Shown here: positions 55,082 to 59,435 of the stretch, one piece after another | Layout: each line of letters opens with the position of its first letter | Numbering within the stretch: the stretch's first letter is position 1 | Assembly (NCBI GenBank): GCA_963825815.1 | Contig: CAWGVB010000030.1 | Span: 10,287 to 74,286, forward strand | Reading direction: 5' to 3' | Source of the DNA: an uncultured Gemmatimonadales bacterium | Lineage (GTDB): Bacteria; Gemmatimonadota; Gemmatimonadetes; Gemmatimonadales; GWC2-71-9 | Length of the DNA stretch: 64,000 bases | The notes under the pieces: model-generated | Told to the model about the DNA's origin: nothing | What the model saw: only the letters and a program-made list of their open reading frames with translations | The model's database searches: none | Translations under genes and position numbers: made by a program

Positions 55082-56461
55082 ATGGGGACTCCTCGAGTGG
55101 TGGTCCTGGGAGGCGGGCTTTCGGGTATGGCGGCAGCCTATACCCTGGCGCGCGCCGGGGTCGGCGACGTCACCCTGCTCGAAGCCGGCGCCACCCTCGG
55201 TGGTCTGGCCGGGAGCTTCGAGCGGGAGGATCACTTTTACCCCCTGGGGTATCATCACATCCTTCACCGCGACCGGGCGCTGCTCTATTTCCTGGAATTG
55301 ATCGGTGCCCTTCCCGACGTCGTGTGGCGCCGGATTCAGATGCTGTTCCATCTCGGTGGGCAGGCGTATGATCTCGCCAGCCCGAGCGGCTTTCTTCGCT
55401 TTCCCATGAGCCTGGCCGACAAAGCGCGGTTCATCCGCCTCATGGTGAAGACCTTCAGCCAACCCGACTGGACCGGCTGGCAGGATCGAAGTGCCGCCGA
55501 ACTGGTGGATCACTACGGCAGTGCCGGCGTGCGCGAAGCACTCTTCGAGCGTCTCACTCGCCTGAAGTTCGACTTGCCCTGCCGGGACGTCAGCGGGGCG
55601 TGGCTCGGTGCCCGGCTCCATTTCCGCGAAGGCTCCGCTCCCCTGGGCTACATCCCTCACGCCAACTGGACCAAGGTGCTGTGCGATGGAGTGACCCAGC
55701 TGCTCCAAGAGGCTGGCATCCAGATCCGACTCCGGGCGCCAGTTGCCCGCCTCCACACCAGCCAGGCTCGGGTGGTAGAAGCGGAACTGGAGAGCGGGGA
55801 GCGTATTTCCGGTGATGTCTTCATCAGTACCGTTCCTACCCGCATCTACCTGGGGCTGGTGCCGGAGGATACCACTCCGCAGCTGAGCCGCATTCGCTAC
55901 ACCGCTCTGATCTCCGCCATCTGTGCAACTCGTCAGGCAGTGACGCCGCAGGCATACTGGAACAACCTGGCATCATTGGACCGAACGGCGGGAGCGATCT
56001 TCCTGCTCAGTGCGCTCAATCCCACCATAGGCCGGGAGGGTGATACCTGCGTCAATTTCGTGACCCACCTCCCCGGATGTGACCACCCGCTCTTCAGGCT
56101 CCCCAAGGACCAGCTGATGGCCCGATATGCCGATGATTTTCGCGAGGTGTTCGGATTCGAGCTGCAGCCGTTCTGGACCCACATATCCAGAGTGCCGATG
56201 TATTCGCCCGTGTTCGATCGTGGGTTCCGCAATCCGCCGATGATGAGCACATCATGGGGCAACGTGTACTTCGCCGGCAACTACCGCACGTTTCCTTCCA
56301 TCGTATCGACCGGCACCGCCCTGGGCTCCGGCGTAGCCACCGCGAGCGCACTGCTCGGGGAGCTGGGCCGGGCGTCGGCCTTGTCCGAGTCGATCGCGAA
56401 CTTTCGCCTGCGCTCCATGCCCCGTGCGAACCCGTTAAAGGACGCGAGAGCCCTGCTATGA
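55082..56461 (+). CDS. FAD-dependent oxidoreductase (amine-oxidase / phytoene-desaturase-like fold)
   Basis: MGTPRVVVLGGGLSGMAAAYTLARAGVGDVTLLEAGATLGGLAGSF (GxGxxG dinucleotide fold)...VYFAGNYRTFPSIVSTGTALGSGVATA. Intact within ORF 54275..56461. Confidence 0.7.
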   Translation: MGTPRVVVLGGGLSGMAAAYTLARAGVGDVTLLEAGATLGGLAGSFEREDHFYPLGYHHILHRDRALLYFLELIGALPDVVWRRIQMLFHLGGQAYDLASPSGFLRFPMSLADKARFIRLMVKTFSQPDWTGWQDRSAAELVDHYGSAGVREALFERLTRLKFDLPCRDVSGAWLGARLHFREGSAPLGYIPHANWTKVLCDGVTQLLQEAGIQIRLRAPVARLHTSQARVVEAELESGERISGDVFISTVPTRIYLGLVPEDTTPQLSRIRYTALISAICATRQAVTPQAYWNNLASLDRTAGAIFLLSALNPTIGREGDTCVNFVTHLPGCDHPLFRLPKDQLMARYADDFREVFGFELQPFWTHISRVPMYSPVFDRGFRNPPMMSTSWGNVYFAGNYRTFPSIVSTGTALGSGVATASALLGELGRASALSESIANFRLRSMPRANPLKDARALL

Positions 56462-57375
56462 CCACACTCGATCTCAGAGCGCCCGCACGATCCCAGTGGT
56501 TCGCACTTGCCGATGCTCTCAGGATCCACCAATGGGTCAAGAATCTTCTGGTATTGGTGCCTGTGTTGTTGGACCACAAGGTGTCGGACCCTGCTGTGGT
56601 GCTCAAAGCCCTGATCGCCTTTGCCGCATTCTGCTTCGCGGCGTCGGGCGCGTACATCATGAACGATCTGTTCGACCATAGGGCCGACCGCCATCATCCG
56701 ACCAAACGGCACCGTCCATTCGCGGCGGAGACCCTCAGCCGTCCCTTCGGGGTGCTGATGGTGCCACTGCTGTTCGCTGGAGCCCTGCTGTGTTCTCTGG
56801 CGCTGGCACCCAAATTCGTCATGCTGCTCACGCTGTATGTGGTACTGACCACAGCCTACTCCGTCTTTCTCAAGCGGGTCGCGATCCTGGACGTTCTCCT
56901 CCTGGCCGGACTCTACAGCTTACGGGTGCTGGCCGGCGTGGCCGCCACCCATGTACGGTTCTCGACCTGGCTCCTGGCCTTTTCGATGTTTCTCTTCCTG
57001 AGTCTCGCATTCCTGAAACGGTATGCCGAGCTGAGCCAGCTTCAGGAAGGAGCGGAGGAGTCTGTGGCTCGTCGCGGGTATCTCCGTGGTGACCGCGAGT
57101 GGCTCGCCTCGATGGGTGGCTCCAGTGGCTACATATCGGTTCTGGTCCTGGCGCTCTATATCAATAGCGATCAGGTCGTGGCGCTGTACCATCGTCCATT
57201 GCTGCTCTGGTTGATCTGTCCACTGCTCCTTCTCTGGATCAGCCGGATGTGGCTCCTGGCTCACCGGGGCCGAATCCATCAGGATCCCATCGTCGCGGCG
57301 GTTCGCGATCCCGCCAGTTATGGCATCGGAACGTTGGTTGCCCTGATCATGTACGTTGCAGCCTATCCCCTCTAA
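56458..57375 (+). CDS. UbiA-family polyprenyl-phosphate 5-phosphoribosyltransferase-like enzyme (Rv3806c/DPPR synthase homologue)
   Basis: ATGA overlap with the previous gene. The sequence [16 protein letters not shown]...[29 protein letters not shown] closely parallels my recollection of Rv3806c (RQWVKNVLVL...YLVNDVRDVEADREHPTKRFRPIAA). About 8 TM helices. Intact. Confidence 0.8.
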   Translation: [305 protein letters not shown]

Positions 57376-57385
57376 CTCACCGACC

Positions 57386-58692
57386 GTGCCCGTACACCAG
57401 TCCTGGGGACGGTACCCCCGCGCCGAACACACCAGTGTCGTCCCGGTGCTCTGGCGTTCCGACCCGCTCGCGCTGTCTGAGGTGTCCGGGAAGCTGCTGC
57501 CATTCGCCTACGGACGCAGCTACGGCGACAGCTGCCTGAATGCCGGAGGCGCCCTGCTGGATGTCTCCGGATTACGCAGGTTCATCAGCTTCGATGACGC
57601 TCGCGGAGTTCTGCGCTGCGAGGCGGGGGCCACCTTGGCAGAAGTTCTGGCACTGATCGTCCCCCGGGGCTGGTTCGTTCCCGTGGTCCCCGGTACCAAG
57701 AGGGTATCGGTCGGCGGGGCAATCGCCAATGACGTTCACGGGAAAAATCACCACCGGGCCGGAACCTTCGGGGCGCATGTGACGTGCTTCGAGCTGCTGC
57801 GATCCACGGGCGAGCGACTTCTTTGCTCGCCGGAGCGCAACGTGGAGTTGTTCCGGGCCACGATCGGCGGGCTGGGCCTGACCGGCCTCATTCTCTGGGC
57901 CGAGTTCCGGCTCAAGAGAATACCCGGACCCCGGATCACCATGGATCGGATTCGGTTTTCCTGCCTGAGCGAGTTCCTACCAGCTCTCCCGCGACGACCA
58001 GGAATACGAATACACCGTTGCGTGGATCGACTGCCTGGCGCGGGGAAGAGCTCTGGGGCGGGGATTGTTCCTGCGGGGTGACCATGTCGCCGGAGCCGGC
58101 CGGGCGCAGCGCGACGACCGTCCGGCGATCACCGTTCCAGTCGATCTCCCTTCAGGCCTGATCGGCCGGGCCGCGACGAGGTTCTTCAATACGTTGTATT
58201 ATCACGCCCAGCTCCGAAGCACGCAGCGTAGAACGCTGTTCTACGAGCCGTTTTTCTTTCCGCTGGACGGTATCGGAGCCTGGAACCGGCTCTATGGAGA
58301 GAAGGGATTTCTGCAGTACCAATGTGTGACGGCGGGAAGACTCGGAGAGCGCGGTCGTGGACTTGCTGGAGCAGGTGGCGCGCTCGGGTGAAACTCCGTC
58401 GCTCGCCGTCCTCAAGAAGTTCGGCCGAATTCCCTCCCCCGGAATGCTCTCATTCCCCCGGCCAGGCATAACCCTCGCCATCGATTTTGCGATGCGGGGC
58501 TCCACCACCCTGAAGCTCCTCGAGCGACTCGATCATATTGTGGCCCAAGCCGGCGGAGCGGTCTACCCCGCCAAGGATGCGCGAATGAGTGGCCCAAGCT
58601 TTCAGCGCTTCTTTCCCAACTGGGAGTCATTCGCGTCGCAGATCGACCCCAAATTCTCCTCCTCGTTCTGGCGCCGTGTCTCTGCGGCATGA
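57386..58692 (+). pseudogene. dprE1: DprE1-like FAD-dependent decaprenylphosphoryl-beta-D-ribose 2'-oxidase homologue; about 3 frame changes
   Basis: ORFs 57356..58081, 58065..58391 and 58357..58692. Sequence: SWGRYPRAEH...LPFAYGRSYGDSCLNAGGALLDVSGL...[37 protein letters not shown]...ELFRATIGGLGLTGLILWAEF...YEYTVAWIDC...FFFPLDGIGAWNRLYGEKGFLQYQCV...SLAVLKKFG...GGAVYPAKDARM. It parallels Rv3790 motifs ([38 protein letters not shown]). Confidence 0.8.
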
Positions 58693-59435
58693 CGCGCCCG
58701 CCAGGGTGCTCATCGTGGGCGCGACCTCGGCCATCGCGGGTGAAACGGCAAAGGAATTCGCCAAGAACGGGGCCCACCTTTTCCTGACCGGTCGGAATGC
58801 CGGCCGCCTGGCCGCGGTTGCAGACGACCTTCGAGTCCGGGGAGCGGCTCGGGTCGAGACAGCTATCCTGGATGTTGCCGATCTTGCCACCCAGGGCCCC
58901 ACGATCGAAGCGGCGTTCGCCACCCTTGGGGAGATTGACGTGGCACTGGTTGCGCATGGGACTCTTCCGAATCAGGAGCGTTGCCAGGAGCAGGTAGAGG
59001 AGACAGTGAAAGCGCTGCACGTCAATTTCACGGGGACCATCGCTCTGCTTACGCTGCTCGCAAATCGGCTGGAATCCCAGCGGCACGGCTGCCTTGCCGT
59101 CATCGGTTCCGTGGCCGGCAGCCGGGGCAGGCGGACGAACTATGTCTATGGTGCAGCCAAGGGAGGGGTCGAGATCTTCCTTCAGGGTCTCCGCGGCCGT
59201 TTGTTCCCGTGCAACGTGACTGTCCTGACGGTCAAACCGGGGTTCGTTGATACCCCGATGACCGCGGGAGCTAAGAAAGAATTTGCTCTTTGCCGATGCC
59301 GGACGCATTGGGCGCGGTATCCACCGTGCAATCGTGCGGCGCAAAGATGTCGTCTACCTACCCTGGTTCTGGCGTCCGATCATGGGCGTGCTTACCAGCC
59401 TACCGGAAATGGTGCTTAAACGGCTTCCCCTGTAG
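58689..59435 (+). pseudogene. dprE2: DprE2-like short-chain dehydrogenase/reductase (decaprenylphospho-2'-keto-ribose reductase homologue); 2 frame changes
   Basis: ATGA overlap with the dprE1-like stop. Sequence: RVLIVGATSAIAGETAKEFAKNGAHLFLTGRN...DVALVAHG...AVIGSVAGSRGRRTNYVYGAAKGGV...TVKPGFVDTPMT, with tail ...VVYLPWFWRPIMGVLTSLPEMVLKRLPL in a shifted frame. Compare the Rv3791 end ...VLRHIPRSIFRKLPI. Confidence 0.75.

What the first reader, a model, noticed from the sequence alone, without database searches (positions are those of the whole stretch)
55082..59435. Mycobacterial-type decaprenyl-phospho-D-arabinose (DPA) donor module in an outer-membrane (non-actinobacterial-looking) genome
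Four co-directional genes are joined by ATGA start/stop overlaps (56458-56461, 58689-58692).
(i) An FAD oxidoreductase.
(ii) A UbiA-family enzyme. Its N-terminal half ([11 protein letters not shown]...[23 protein letters not shown]) parallels, from memory, M. tuberculosis Rv3806c, the decaprenyl-phosphate 5-phosphoribosyltransferase.
(iii) A DprE1-like flavoenzyme ([35 protein letters not shown]).
(iv) A DprE2-like SDR whose tail VLKRLPL mirrors the Rv3791 tail FRKLPI.
In Corynebacteriales these three activities make DPA, the only Araf donor for arabinogalactan and LAM. To my knowledge, homologous trios outside actinobacteria are known only in scattered cases, namely P. aeruginosa pilin arabinosylation and Azorhizobium Nod-factor arabinosylation.
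Here the module sits next to two GT-C enzymes and an ABC-transporter glycan operon. The surrounding window carries SusC/SusD, AsmA and LAB_N/ArnT-like genes, which mark a diderm envelope. This predicts a periplasmic, lipid-linked D-arabinofuranose decoration of a surface glycan.
Two things depart from the mycobacterial scheme. There is a leading FAD oxidoreductase, which could add an extra redox step or yield a different pentose epimer. No Rv3807c-like PAP2 phosphatase is visible.
Basis: partly seen in the sequence, partly recalled or inferred. Interest (0 to 1): 0.8.

Follow-up and report, generated by a model that had tools for sequence, protein, structure and literature searches.

The report
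Lipid-linked arabinofuranose donor operon, Gemmatimonadales
A soil Gemmatimonadales bacterium carries a four-gene operon whose last three genes resemble the mycobacterial genes for the lipid-linked D-arabinofuranose donor; since 2024 such modules have been known to be common in Gram-negative bacteria, so this is an ordinary new example with one uncharacterised extra flavoenzyme.

Summary
The four co-directional genes are real. They are a flavoprotein (55082-56461), a UbiA-family phosphoribosyltransferase (56458-57375), a DprE1-like oxidase (57386-58692) and a DprE2-like reductase (58676-59435).

- **Homology.** Solved M. tuberculosis/M. smegmatis DPPRS, DprE1 and DprE2 are the best PDB matches by wide margins (E 2e-26, 7.5e-67, 3e-31).
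- **Frame breaks.** The breaks in DprE1 and DprE2 are single-base insertions private to this assembly. They occur about once per kb in every gene compared. Four independent contigs at 87-98% identity are intact at these sites. They are artefacts, not decay.
- **Second overlap.** The second "ATGA overlap" is not the reductase start. That is most likely GTG 58676.
- **Context.** The neighbours are two GT-C glycosyltransferases (one by Pfam, one by predicted fold), a polyprenyl-phosphate hexose-transferase-like GT2, Wzm/Wzt and three other GTs.
- **Missing parts.** No sugar-5-phosphatase and no flippase of the kinds searched was found in the window.
- **Rarity claim fails.** UbiA→DprE1→DprE2 occurs in 57 of 68 related genome loci across many phyla. 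Kelly et al. (PNAS 2024) already describe this pathway as widespread.
- **Residual lead.** The flavoprotein is a divergent PRK07233 member. That family accompanies DprE1/E2 in 28 of 80 loci and its role is unknown.

Verdict: new member of a known kind, modest interest.

The parts
55082..56461 (+). Gene 1: 459-aa flavoprotein ('FADox'). It has an amine-oxidase / phytoene-desaturase / protoporphyrinogen-oxidase fold and is a divergent relative of NCBIfam PRK07233. Its stop overlaps the UbiA start (ATGA). Function unknown.
   Evidence: Pfam Amino_oxidase 100.8 bits over the full length. NF005560 PRK07233 scores 203.4 bits against a cut-off of 252; the next family, HpnE, scores 80 bits. The AF2 model has pLDDT 85.7, and the best PDB folds are phytoene desaturase 5mog (TM 0.77) and CgoX/PPO. 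The same 459-aa gene is called on L081, L083 and L084.
56458..57375 (+). Gene 2: 305-aa UbiA-family polyprenyl-phosphate 5-phosphoribosyltransferase (PPPRS/DPPRS type). It carries the NDxxDxxxD motif ([10 protein letters not shown]) and KRYAEL. It lacks the N-terminal HAD phosphoribose-phosphatase domain.
   Evidence: NF006088 PRK08238 scores 392.9 bits (cut-off 351) but matches only model positions 187-480 of 482. DPPRS models score 130-160 bits; other UbiA clades score 49 bits or less. PDB 8j8j, M. tuberculosis DPPRS, matches at E 2.4e-26. 60 of 80 relatives carry a fused HAD domain with the DLDGTL motif, and the Gemmatimonadales do not.
57386..58692 (+). Gene 3: DprE1-like FAD oxidase, 434 aa once two 1-nt insertions (near 57976 and 58333) are removed. 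[12 protein letters not shown] and the catalytic Lys (AKDAR) are conserved. The benzothiazinone-target Cys is Ala here (ITLAIDF).
   Evidence: The gene reads in three frames in the window. The corrected protein is 431/434 identical to the intact L081 gene. NF053785 DprE1 scores 345.6 bits over the full length (cut-off 500), and the next family scores 38 bits. PDB 4aut DprE1 matches at E 7.5e-67, against 1.6e-10 for the next family.
58676..59435 (+). Gene 4: DprE2-like short-chain reductase, 252 aa once one 1-nt insertion (near 59269) is removed. The start is GTG 58676, overlapping the DprE1 3' end by 17 nt. It has a YxxxK active site and the C-terminal tail ...VLKRLPL.
   Evidence: The gene reads in two frames in the window. 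The corrected protein is 242/252 identical to L081. NF005489 PRK07102 scores 290.1 bits (cut-off 267). NF053786 DprE2 scores 190.9 bits (cut-off 250). PDB 21gq_C DprE2 matches end to end, tail included, at E 3.1e-31; the next SDR is at 9e-16.
57976..57976 (+). Single-base insertion private to this assembly. It causes the first frame change in the DprE1-like gene. The position is ambiguous by about 3 nt.
   Evidence: Absent from L001, L081, L082 and L083.
58333..58333 (+). Single-base insertion private to this assembly. It causes the second frame change in the DprE1-like gene.
   Evidence: Absent from L001, L081, L082 and L083.
59269..59269 (+). Single-base insertion private to this assembly. 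It causes the frame change in the DprE2-like gene.
   Evidence: Absent from L001, L081, L082 and L083.
53376..54967 (-). PMT_2-family GT-C glycosyltransferase (529 aa on L081), transcribed divergently from gene 1. It is the most conserved neighbour of the operon in Gemmatimonadales and the best candidate for the arabinofuranosyltransferase. The window copy carries two private 1-nt insertions, near 53454 and 53481.
   Evidence: Pfam PMT_2 scores 53.5 bits. It has an N-terminal WADE motif and at least 8 hydrophobic segments. It lies adjacent to FADox in L001, L002, L005 and L007. In L005 it is present without the ABC/GT2 genes.
51726..53439 (+). Second GT-C-fold glycosyltransferase (570 aa on L081) with no Pfam, NCBIfam or PDB sequence hit. 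It has invariant D29/D33 in the first loop and a C-terminal soluble domain. It follows the GT2-TM gene. The window copy carries a private 1-nt insertion near 52611.
   Evidence: The AF2 model has pLDDT 88.7. The top 26 Foldseek PDB hits are all GT-C enzymes, including AglB, STT3, ArnT 5ezm, DPY19, ALG9 and AftA 8if8. There are no sequence-level hits.
50578..51721 (+). GT2 with a C-terminal membrane domain, resembling polyprenyl/dolichyl-phosphate hexose transferases (AglJ, GtrB, ArnC). It probably makes a second lipid-linked monosaccharide donor. The window copy carries a private 1-nt insertion near 50647.
   Evidence: Glycos_transf_2 scores 97.6 bits. AglJ scores 132 bits and dolichyl-phosphate hexose transferase 102 bits. 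PF26629 GT2_TM_C is recorded on the L081 gene.
48973..50569 (+). Wzm/Wzt-type polysaccharide ABC transporter: permease at 48973-49797 and ATPase at 49751-50569.
   Evidence: ABC2_membrane and ABC_tran are recorded on the L081 genes that map to these coordinates.
45746..48976 (+). Three cytoplasmic glycosyltransferases at the head of the cluster: GT4 at 45746-47038, GT2 at 47016-47999 and GT2 at 47996-48976.
   Evidence: Pfam hits and the L081 gene calls.

Best explanation
This is a Gemmatimonadales version of the polyprenyl-phosphate pentofuranose (D-arabinofuranose) donor pathway, coupled to periplasmic GT-C glycosylation.

**Proposed mechanism (all steps inferred from homology)**
1. [quoted passage not shown]
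2. The 5-phosphate is removed by a phosphatase encoded elsewhere.
3. The DprE1-like flavoenzyme oxidises C2 of the lipid-linked ribofuranose.
4. The DprE2-like SDR reduces the 2-keto intermediate to the arabino configuration.
5. The lipid-linked Araf is flipped by a carrier that was not identified.
6. A GT-C transferase adds Araf to an envelope glycoconjugate on the periplasmic side. The divergently transcribed PMT_2-type enzyme is the most likely one.
7. In this genome the likely acceptor is the Wzm/Wzt-exported polysaccharide built by the adjacent GT4/GT2 genes.

**Other inferences**
- The second GT-C probably uses the hexose donor made by the adjacent GT2-TM enzyme.
- The leading flavoprotein is translationally coupled to the UbiA gene and belongs to a family that recurrently accompanies DprE1/E2. 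It is probably an accessory redox enzyme of the pathway, but its reaction is unknown.
- The frame breaks are assembly errors, so the genes should be read as intact.
For: **Identity of the enzymes**
- UbiA: PRK08238 scores 392.9 bits and passes its cut-off. DPPRS models come next, and quinone or haem clades score 49 bits or less.
- PDB 8j8j DPPRS matches at E 2.4e-26, with NDxxDxxxD and KRYAEL aligned. Kelly et al. 2024 show these motif residues are needed for activity.
- DprE1-like: NF053785 scores 345.6 bits over the full length and is the only strong family. PDB 4aut matches at E 7.5e-67, with HGKNHH, QYQ and the catalytic Lys conserved.
- DprE2-like: PDB 21gq_C matches at E 3.1e-31 end to end.

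**Intactness**
- All frame breaks are window-private 1-nt insertions against four independent contigs.
- The corrected proteins are 431/434 and 242/252 identical to the L081 proteins.
- Differences from relatives are mostly synonymous. For DprE1 against L083, 30 codons differ synonymously and 8 change the amino acid.

**Conservation as a unit**
- UbiA→DprE1→DprE2 occurs in 57 of 68 loci with enough flank.
- In Gemmatimonadales the core is PMT_2 GT-C plus FADox-UbiA-E1-E2.

**GT-C partners**.

**Established precedent**
- Kelly et al. 2024.
- The P. aeruginosa Pa5196 cluster.
- Rhizobial noeCNHOP.
- Phosphatase mutants in both of the latter only reduce arabinosylation. The GtrA-like protein is dispensable in PAO1.
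Against: - There is no biochemical or compositional evidence. D-arabinose has not been shown in any Gemmatimonadota envelope, and a literature search found nothing.
- The DprE1- and DprE2-like proteins fall below the NCBIfam equivalog cut-offs (345.6 against 500, and 190.9 against 250). Orthology of function with the mycobacterial enzymes is therefore inferred, not assigned.
- No phosphatase of the HAD-PRP or PAP2 type and no GtrA-like or LPG-synthase-TM-like flippase is encoded in the 64 kb. MATE and SMR types were not tested.
- The assignment of donors to the two GT-Cs, and the identity of the acceptor, rest only on gene neighbourhood.
- The extra flavoprotein could change the product.
Confidence: 0.78

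Rival explanations
1. The module is a decaying pseudogene cluster. On this reading the frameshifts in the DprE1- and DprE2-like genes are real and the pathway is dead in this organism.
For: The window sequence as given breaks DprE1 into three frames and DprE2 into two. Both GT-Cs and the GT2-TM gene are also broken.
Against: - Every break is a single inserted base absent from L001, L081, L082 and L083.
- The same kind of private indel occurs about once per kb in unrelated neighbouring genes: DDAH, the amino-acid permease and an SDR at 62.8-63.9 kb.
- Removing the three bases restores full-length proteins with no other lesions.
- Substitutions are mostly synonymous.
- Decay at this density across all genes is implausible for a free-living bacterium.
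Confidence: 0.06
2. The pathway is real, but its end product is not plain polyprenyl-P-D-Araf. The PRK07233-like flavoprotein adds a further redox step. This could be a second oxidation of the sugar giving another pentofuranose or a keto or uronic derivative, or a desaturation or saturation of the polyprenyl carrier.
For: - The gene is translationally coupled to UbiA through the ATGA overlap.
- FADox/PRK07233 is co-directional with the module in 28 of 80 loci. It is never found where DprE1 is absent: 0 of 9 against 28 of 59, hypergeometric P 0.0055, not corrected for phylogeny.
- In all 21 non-Gemmatimonadales cases it sits in a NAD-epimerase → PRK07233 → GtrA triad. That is a flavin-oxidase plus SDR pairing reminiscent of DprE1/DprE2.
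- Its closest fold is phytoene desaturase, a polyisoprenoid-tunnel enzyme.
- Kelly et al. note 'elaborate' Xanthomonas systems with several epimerases whose significance is unknown.
Against: - 31 of the 59 flank-complete loci with DprE1 lack the flavoprotein, so it is not needed for the core chemistry.
- The Gemmatimonadales protein is only 23-28% identical to true PRK07233 members and falls below that family's cut-off.
- It has no SDR partner of its own here.
- No substrate can be inferred from the fold alone.
Confidence: 0.2
3. The donor is as proposed, but the acceptor is not the ABC-transporter polysaccharide. The PMT_2-type GT-C would instead arabinosylate proteins (as TfpW does for pilin, or PMT-type O-glycosylation) or lipid A/core (as ArnT does).
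For: - In L005 the PMT_2 GT-C plus four-gene operon stands alone, with no Wzm/Wzt or GT2 genes within 10 kb.
- PMT_2 is the family of ArnT-like and protein O-mannosyltransferase-like enzymes.
- In P. aeruginosa the same donor pathway serves pilin glycosylation.
Against: - In the window, L001, L002 and L007 the operon is embedded in a Wzm/Wzt glycan cluster.
- Kelly et al. show that post-polymerisation side-chain addition to ABC-transporter O antigens is the common use.
Confidence: 0.25
4. The resemblance is superficial. On this reading the UbiA enzyme is a quinone, haem or chlorophyll prenyltransferase, and the other genes are generic oxidoreductases unrelated to pentose epimerisation.
For: Pfam alone gives only the generic families UbiA, FAD_binding_4 and adh_short.
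Against: - NCBIfam and PDB searches place all three with DPPRS, DprE1 and DprE2 by margins of 15 to more than 50 orders of magnitude over the next families.
- The three genes stay together in the same order across phyla.
Confidence: 0.02

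Closest known systems
Mycobacterial decaprenyl-phospho-arabinose (DPA) pathway: Rv3806c (DPPRS), Rv3807c, DprE1 (Rv3790), DprE2 (Rv3791), Rv3789, and the Emb/Aft GT-C arabinosyltransferases
   Same: - The three core enzymes are the same, and the solved mycobacterial structures are the best matches (8j8j, 4aut, 21gq_C).
- The PPPRS lacks a fused phosphatase, as in M. tuberculosis.
- The DprE1 catalytic Lys and the His/Lys and QYQ motifs are conserved.
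- The DprE2 tail is conserved.
- GT-C transferases are encoded nearby. AftA is among the fold hits of the 570-aa GT-C.
   Different: - The host is a diderm, and the carrier is presumably undecaprenyl rather than decaprenyl phosphate (inference).
- No PAP2 phosphatase and no Rv3789/GtrA-like gene is present.
- The scores fall below the actinobacterial equivalog cut-offs.
- The Cys targeted by benzothiazinones is Ala here.
- There is an extra PDS/PPO-like flavoprotein.
- The GT-Cs are PMT_2/ArnT-like rather than Emb/Aft family members by sequence.
- The likely use is decoration of an ABC-exported glycan, not synthesis of an arabinan core.
Three-component extracytoplasmic pentofuranose glycosylation systems (Kelly, Duong, Nothof, Lowary, Whitfield, PNAS 2024, PMC11127046). 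The prototype is C. youngae ORF15 (PRP-PPPRS), ORF14 (MATE) and ORF12 (GT-C, GT136), with auxiliary epimerases.
   Same: - The logic is the same: PRPP → polyprenyl-P-Ribf, then an optional epimerase (DprE1/E2 homologues where the glycan contains Araf), then flipping, then GT-C side-chain addition.
- The acceptor is often an ABC-transporter-dependent O polysaccharide.
- The window's UbiA belongs to the same NCBIfam family (PRK08238) as the HAD-fused PPPRS of Xanthomonas, Stenotrophomonas and Burkholderia.
   Different: - The HAD phosphoribose-phosphatase domain is absent.
- No GtrA-like or LPG-synthase-TM-like flippase is encoded in the window, and MATE was not tested.
- GT136 membership of the GT-Cs was not tested.
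- The phylum Gemmatimonadota is not among the paper's examples. A search of the supplement found no mention.
P. aeruginosa Pa5196/PA7 pilin D-Araf cluster (PsPA7_6245-6251) with TfpW
   Same: - It has an unfused PPPRS, DprE1 and DprE2 in a Gram-negative bacterium.
- The phosphatase (6245) and the GtrA-like protein (6247) are helpful but not strictly required. This shows that a cluster lacking them can still work.
   Different: - There the acceptor is type IV pilin, the GT-C TfpW is unlinked, and the product is an α-1,5 Araf oligomer.
- Here the GT-C is adjacent, and the context is a Wzm/Wzt polysaccharide cluster.
- No flavoprotein is described for the Pseudomonas cluster in the text read.
Rhizobial Nod-factor arabinosylation operon noeCHOP / noeCNHOP (Azorhizobium caulinodans, Rhizobium sp. 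IRBG74)
   Same: Three genes (noeC, noeH, noeO) are orthologous to the DPA-synthesis genes. Loss of the phosphatase candidate (noeN) only reduces arabinosylation.
   Different: The acceptor is a lipo-chitooligosaccharide. The transferase NoeP has no mycobacterial orthologue. The operon is borne on a symbiosis plasmid.
'Elaborate' proteobacterial modules, for example in the Xanthomonas etfA-side LPS locus: flippase-like, HAD-UbiA, DprE1, DprE2, NAD-epimerase, PRK07233 flavoprotein, GtrA
   Same: These are the only other systems seen here that pair DprE1/E2 with an amine-oxidase-fold flavoprotein of the PRK07233 lineage, co-directional with the module.
   Different: - In proteobacteria the flavoprotein is a full PRK07233 member (524-543 bits). 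It lies downstream and always sits between a NAD-epimerase and GtrA.
- In Gemmatimonadales it is divergent (203 bits). It lies upstream, overlaps the UbiA start, and has neither partner.

Membership tests
Polyprenyl-phosphate D-arabinofuranose (DPA-type) donor pathway | A UbiA-superfamily polyprenyl-phosphate 5-phosphoribosyltransferase with the NDxxDxxxD and (K/R)RYAE motifs, closer to DPPRS than to quinone or haem prenyltransferases | tested here: met
   PRK08238 scores 392.9 bits (cut-off 351). DPPRS models score 130-160 bits, and other UbiA clades 49 bits or less. 8j8j matches at E 2.4e-26 with the motifs aligned.
Polyprenyl-phosphate D-arabinofuranose (DPA-type) donor pathway | A DprE1-type FAD-dependent 2'-oxidase with its catalytic residues | tested here: met
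   NF053785 gives a full-length match at 345.6 bits, and the next family scores 38 bits. 4aut matches at E 7.5e-67. [12 protein letters not shown] and the Lys of AKDAR are conserved, and Cys387 is replaced by Ala.
Polyprenyl-phosphate D-arabinofuranose (DPA-type) donor pathway | A DprE2-type SDR 2'-keto reductase encoded next to DprE1 | tested here: met
   21gq_C matches at E 3.1e-31 from residue 8 to the C-terminal tail, with YxxxK present. The gene is adjacent and overlaps DprE1 by 17 nt.
Polyprenyl-phosphate D-arabinofuranose (DPA-type) donor pathway | A dedicated polyprenyl-P-ribose-5-phosphate phosphatase (PAP2 Rv3807c type, or a HAD PRP domain) | tested here: not met
   - UbiA matches only positions 187-480 of the HAD-UbiA model.
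- A HAD-PRP profile built from 60 relatives gave no hit in six frames of the window.
- A crude regex found no PAP2 motif combination.
- The feature is dispensable in Pa5196 and Rhizobium.
Polyprenyl-phosphate D-arabinofuranose (DPA-type) donor pathway | The product is β-D-arabinofuranosyl-1-phospho-polyprenol, and D-Araf is present in an envelope glycan | not testable with these tools
   This needs an enzymatic assay or GC-MS/NMR of envelope material.
NCBIfam equivalogs DprE1 (NF053785) and DprE2 (NF053786) | A whole-protein score at or above the curated cut-off (500 and 250 bits) | tested here: not met
   The intact orthologue on L081 scores 345.6 and 190.9 bits. NCBI rules would name these proteins 'FAD-binding oxidoreductase' and 'SDR family oxidoreductase (PRK07102, 290.1 ≥ 267)'.
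Three-component pentofuranose glycosylation system (Kelly et al. 2024) | A PPPRS that generates polyprenyl-P-Ribf; in the prototype it is fused to a HAD PRP domain | tested here: inconclusive
   The PPPRS domain is present, but the PRP domain is absent. The paper itself accepts unfused PPPRS enzymes (M. tuberculosis, P. aeruginosa) as the same pathway type.
Three-component pentofuranose glycosylation system (Kelly et al. 2024) | A dedicated flippase (MATE in the prototype; GtrA- or SMR-like in others) | tested here: inconclusive
   Profiles for GtrA-like and LPG-synthase-TM flippase-like proteins, built from relatives, gave no hit in the window. MATE and SMR families were not searched. The L081 gene calls over 20 kb show none.
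Three-component pentofuranose glycosylation system (Kelly et al. 2024) | An associated GT-C glycosyltransferase that uses the lipid-linked donor | tested here: met
   A PMT_2 GT-C lies divergently adjacent and is conserved next to the operon in L001, L002, L005 and L007. A second protein has a GT-C fold. The donor specificity of neither was tested.
CAZy GT136 | Sequence membership with C. youngae ORF12 | not tested
NCBIfam PRK07233 (NF005560) flavoprotein family | A whole-protein score at or above 252 bits | tested here: not met
   The window protein scores 203.4 bits. PRK07233 is the best hit by 120 bits but is below the cut-off. The Xanthomonas and alphaproteobacterial companions score 543 and 524 bits.

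The most novel reading that the evidence does not exclude
The PDS/PPO-fold flavoprotein fused by start/stop overlap to the PPPRS gene would be a true fourth enzyme of the pathway. It would alter either the sugar or the polyprenyl carrier. On this reading Gemmatimonadales, and the proteobacteria that carry the NAD-epimerase-PRK07233-GtrA triad, make a lipid-linked pentofuranose donor different from the mycobacterial DPA. That would reveal an undescribed branch of pentofuranose glycobiology.
Probability: 0.2. Interest if true: 0.6.

Novelty: new member of a known kind. Interest (0 to 1): 0.3.

Why it matters
This finding extends the DPA-type, PRPP-derived lipid-linked pentofuranose pathway to Gemmatimonadota, an abundant and poorly cultured soil phylum whose envelope glycans are essentially uncharacterised. 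It predicts D-Araf in their surface polysaccharide.

The survey made here also shows how common the UbiA-DprE1-DprE2 operon is outside actinobacteria. It isolates two testable side issues.
- An uncharacterised flavoprotein family (PRK07233) travels with DprE1/E2 in about a third of the loci.
- Some systems, this one included, work without a locally encoded phosphatase or flippase.

The DprE1 homologue has Ala in place of the benzothiazinone-reactive Cys. By inference, such enzymes should be naturally insensitive to that drug class.

None of this overturns current understanding. The concept was published in 2024.

Tried and rejected
- **Failed search.** The first large protein search, with UbiA, timed out. 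I used the genome-contig scan instead.
- **GC3 filter.** A GC3-based ORF filter meant to map frameshifts over the whole window was too noisy to use. Direct alignment to near-identical contigs answered the question.
- **Missing components.** Profiles built from relatives were searched against six-frame translations of the window. The HAD-PRP, GtrA-like, LPG-synthase-TM flippase-like and NAD-epimerase profiles all gave no hit. A PAP2 motif regex also found nothing.
- **GT-C sequence searches.** Sequence searches of both GT-Cs against the PDB gave nothing. Profile-profile comparison of the 570-aa family with the PMT_2 family was weak, at 31% probability. Fold prediction was therefore used.
- **FADox function.** The PDB sequence search and the fold search for FADox gave only generic PDS, PPO and amine-oxidase relatives, so no substrate could be assigned. 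Its 120 listed homologues are all 71% identical or more and uninformative.
- **Literature.** Searches for arabinose in Gemmatimonadetes and for D-Araf O antigens in Xanthomonas, Burkholderia and Stenotrophomonas found nothing specific.
- **Phages.** The phage collection gave one weak, unannotated hit.
- **Plasmid examples.** The annotated plasmid examples viewed (Azospirillum, Granulicella) have different architectures and did not help.
- **Promoters and terminators.** The scan was at background level.
- **Rejected readings.** I rejected the pseudogene reading, the reading of gene 2 as a quinone or haem prenyltransferase, and the reading of the flavoprotein as a substitute for the missing HAD domain. 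Other HAD-less lineages lack the flavoprotein.

Full report
**1. What is in the sequence**

The window has about 66% G+C. Its closest public relatives are Gemmatimonadales metagenome-assembled genomes.

Between 55082 and 59435 there are four co-directional + strand genes.
- **Gene 1 (55082-56461, 459 aa)** is a flavoprotein. Its stop overlaps the start of gene 2, with the ATGA at 56458-56461.
- **Gene 2 (56458-57375, 305 aa)** is a UbiA-family membrane protein.
- **Gene 3** begins most likely at GTG 57386 and ends at TGA 58690-58692. In the window it is read in three successive frames.
- **Gene 4** is read in two frames and ends at 59435.

The second "ATGA overlap" is not a start/stop junction. 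The ATG at 58689 is out of frame with the reductase. The gene call on the 98%-identical contig L081 maps the reductase start to window GTG 58676, overlapping gene 3 by 17 nt.

**2. The frame changes are assembly artefacts**

The identical UbiA protein is encoded on five independent public contigs. The window was aligned to four intact relatives.

| Contig | Nucleotide identity to the window |
|---|---|
| L081 | 98.1% over 17.5 kb |
| L082 | 96.6% |
| L083 | 96.0% |
| L001 | 86.7% |

- Each break is a single inserted base found only in the window. The positions are near 57976 and 58333 in gene 3 and near 59269 in gene 4.
- Further private insertions lie near 50647, 52611, 53454 and 53481 in the neighbouring glycosyltransferases.
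- About ten more private indels fall in unrelated genes downstream, between 59947 and 63969.
- That is roughly one private indel per kb, mostly insertions, in every gene compared.
- Removing the three bases restores a 434-aa and a 252-aa protein. These are 431/434 and 242/252 identical to the L081 proteins.
- Nucleotide differences from relatives are mostly synonymous.

The genes should therefore be read as intact. Only read mapping can prove this formally.

**3. Identity of the enzymes**

Gene 2 (UbiA family):
- It passes the NCBIfam PRK08238 model at 392.9 bits (cut-off 351).
- The decaprenyl-phosphate phosphoribosyltransferase models come next at 130-160 bits. All quinone, haem and archaeal-lipid UbiA models score 49 bits or less.
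- Its only PDB sequence match is M. tuberculosis DPPRS, 8j8j, at E 2.4e-26. The NDxxDxxxD and KRYAEL motifs align. Mutagenesis shows these motif residues matter for activity (PMC11127046).

Gene 3 (DprE1-like), tested as the intact orthologue:
- It matches the DprE1 model over its full length at 345.6 bits. The next family scores 38 bits.
- It matches M. smegmatis and M. tuberculosis DprE1 structures at E 7.5e-67 to 1e-63. Cytokinin dehydrogenases follow at 1.6e-10.
- [12 protein letters not shown] and the lysine of AKDAR are conserved.
- The cysteine that benzothiazinones attack is alanine here.

Gene 4 (DprE2-like):
- It matches DprE2 of the solved DprE1-DprE2 complex, 21gq_C, end to end at E 3.1e-31. 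The next SDR is at 9e-16.

Both epimerase homologues fall below the curated actinobacterial equivalog cut-offs (500 and 250 bits). They are the nearest relatives of those families, not members of them. Gene 4 does pass PRK07102.

**4. Surroundings**

Upstream on the same strand are the following.
- A GT4 and two GT2 glycosyltransferases.
- A Wzm/Wzt ABC transporter.
- A GT2 with a C-terminal membrane domain. Its best matches are polyprenyl- or dolichyl-phosphate hexose transferases.
- A 570-aa polytopic protein with no sequence-level family.

A PMT_2-family GT-C is transcribed divergently from gene 1.

For the 570-aa protein I predicted a structure (pLDDT 88.7). Its top 26 PDB fold matches are all GT-C enzymes: AglB, STT3, PglB, ArnT, DPY19, ALG9/12, AftA and Pmt4.

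Among Gemmatimonadales relatives, the PMT_2 GT-C is the neighbour that stays with the operon. In L005 it is present although the ABC and GT2 genes are not. I therefore regard it as the likelier arabinofuranosyltransferase. The 570-aa GT-C follows the GT2-TM gene and is the likelier user of that enzyme's hexose donor. This assignment is inference from neighbourhood only.

**5. What is missing**

- The PRK08238 model is a HAD-phosphatase/UbiA fusion. The window protein matches only its UbiA part.
- Sixty of 80 relatives carry the N-terminal HAD domain with the DLDGTL motif. The seven Gemmatimonadales loci and about ten others do not.
- A profile of that domain finds nothing in six frames of the window. 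No PAP2 signature was seen.
- Profiles of the GtrA-like and LPG-synthase-TM flippase-like genes found next to the module in other phyla also find nothing.
- Published genetics make these gaps tolerable. Loss of the phosphatase only reduces arabinosylation in P. aeruginosa Pa5196 and in Rhizobium sp. IRBG74. The GtrA-like protein is dispensable in PAO1.

**6. Distribution and what is already known**

570 stretches encode relatives of gene 2.
- Of the 80 loci fetched, 68 have at least 2.5 kb downstream. Of those, 57 show UbiA→DprE1→DprE2 in the same order and strand.
- These loci come from Gemmatimonadota, Acidobacteriota, Nitrospirota, Planctomycetota, Verrucomicrobiota neighbours, Bdellovibrionota, Trueperaceae, and many Alpha-, Beta- and Gammaproteobacteria. 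The last group includes Xanthomonas, Stenotrophomonas and Paraburkholderia.
- Eighty plasmid records also carry relatives.
- Kelly et al. (PNAS 2024, PMC11127046) showed biochemically that PRP-PPPRS + flippase + GT-C systems add α-pentofuranoses in the periplasm. They reported that systems for Araf-containing glycans carry DprE1/E2 homologues, and that the strategy is widespread.

The premise of rarity is out of date.

**7. The extra flavoprotein**

- Gene 1's best family is PRK07233, at 203 bits against a cut-off of 252. HpnE comes next at 80 bits.
- Its predicted fold (pLDDT 85.7) is closest to plant phytoene desaturase (TM 0.77) and to coproporphyrinogen/protoporphyrinogen oxidases.
- True PRK07233 members, scoring 524-543 bits, lie co-directionally beside the DprE1/E2 module in Xanthomonadales, Burkholderiales and others.
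- Counting both kinds, 28 of 80 loci have such a gene. It is never found without DprE1: 0 of 9 against 28 of 59, hypergeometric P 0.0055, not corrected for relatedness.
- In all 21 non-Gemmatimonadales cases it sits in a NAD-epimerase → PRK07233 → GtrA triad. In Gemmatimonadales it stands alone upstream of UbiA.
- It is not a replacement for the HAD domain, because other HAD-less lineages lack it.
- Its reaction is unknown. The candidates are a second flavin/SDR redox step on the sugar, or an action on the polyprenyl chain.
- This is the one part of the finding that is not already explained.

**8. Verdict**

This is a new member, in a new phylum, of a known kind of system.

Noticed in passing
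window 46454-64000 (compared with L081, L082, L083): The window carries about one private single-base indel per kb, mostly insertions and not confined to homopolymers. They disrupt nearly every gene compared. The positions include 50647, 52611, 53454, 53481, 57976, 58333, 59269, 59947, 59986, 60872, 62404, 62794, 63130, 63670 and 63969. Any ORF-based reading of this window should allow for frameshifts. The rest of the window (1-46 kb) also looks fragmented but was not compared with a reference.
   Followed up: partly
L030 12940-15589; L031 6664-9390; L040 15476-18140; L058 3882-6585: A conserved triad, NAD-dependent epimerase → PRK07233 flavoprotein → GtrA-like protein, accompanies the HAD-UbiA/DprE1/DprE2 module in 21 proteobacterial loci. 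It looks like a second flavin-oxidase/SDR pair of unknown role.
   Followed up: partly
window 40958-45560: A very large GH94-type gene (glucoamylase-like, GH94 supersandwich and catalytic domains; cyclic β-1,2-glucan synthase or phosphorylase-like) is split over several frames. It lies immediately upstream of the glycan cluster.
   Followed up: no
window 60255-60340: A short tandem-repeat tract (GGTCTA and GTCTGGT units; period 6-7 or 13-14) lies in the intergenic region between the DDAH-like gene and the amino-acid permease. It differs in length between the window, L082 and L083, so it varies between strains.
   Followed up: partly
window 55033-55076: A 44-nt stretch in the divergent intergenic region between the PMT_2 GT-C and gene 1 is absent from the 87%-identical relative L001.
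   Followed up: no
window 59480-60255 (-) and 60292-61623 (-): Synteny with the more distant relative L001 ends exactly at the stop of the DprE2-like gene. Downstream here are a dimethylargininase-like gene and an amino-acid permease. In L005 and L007 an M28 peptidase and a TrmB-type regulator follow instead. The operon boundary at 59435 is therefore well defined.
   Followed up: partly
window 30906-32747 (-), 16877-18358 (+), 19278-20675 (-): Three other genes were noted: a HAMP-domain Ser/Thr protein kinase, a SusD-family protein, and a third PMT/PMT_2-family GT-C far from the cluster.
   Followed up: no
L086 6967-9891 (Azospirillum ramasamyi plasmid NZ_CP029831.1): A 975-aa protein annotated 'UbiA family prenyltransferase' is followed by a small EamA-family transporter, with no adjacent DprE1/E2. 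It appears to be a fused, epimerase-less variant of the PPPRS system.
   Followed up: no
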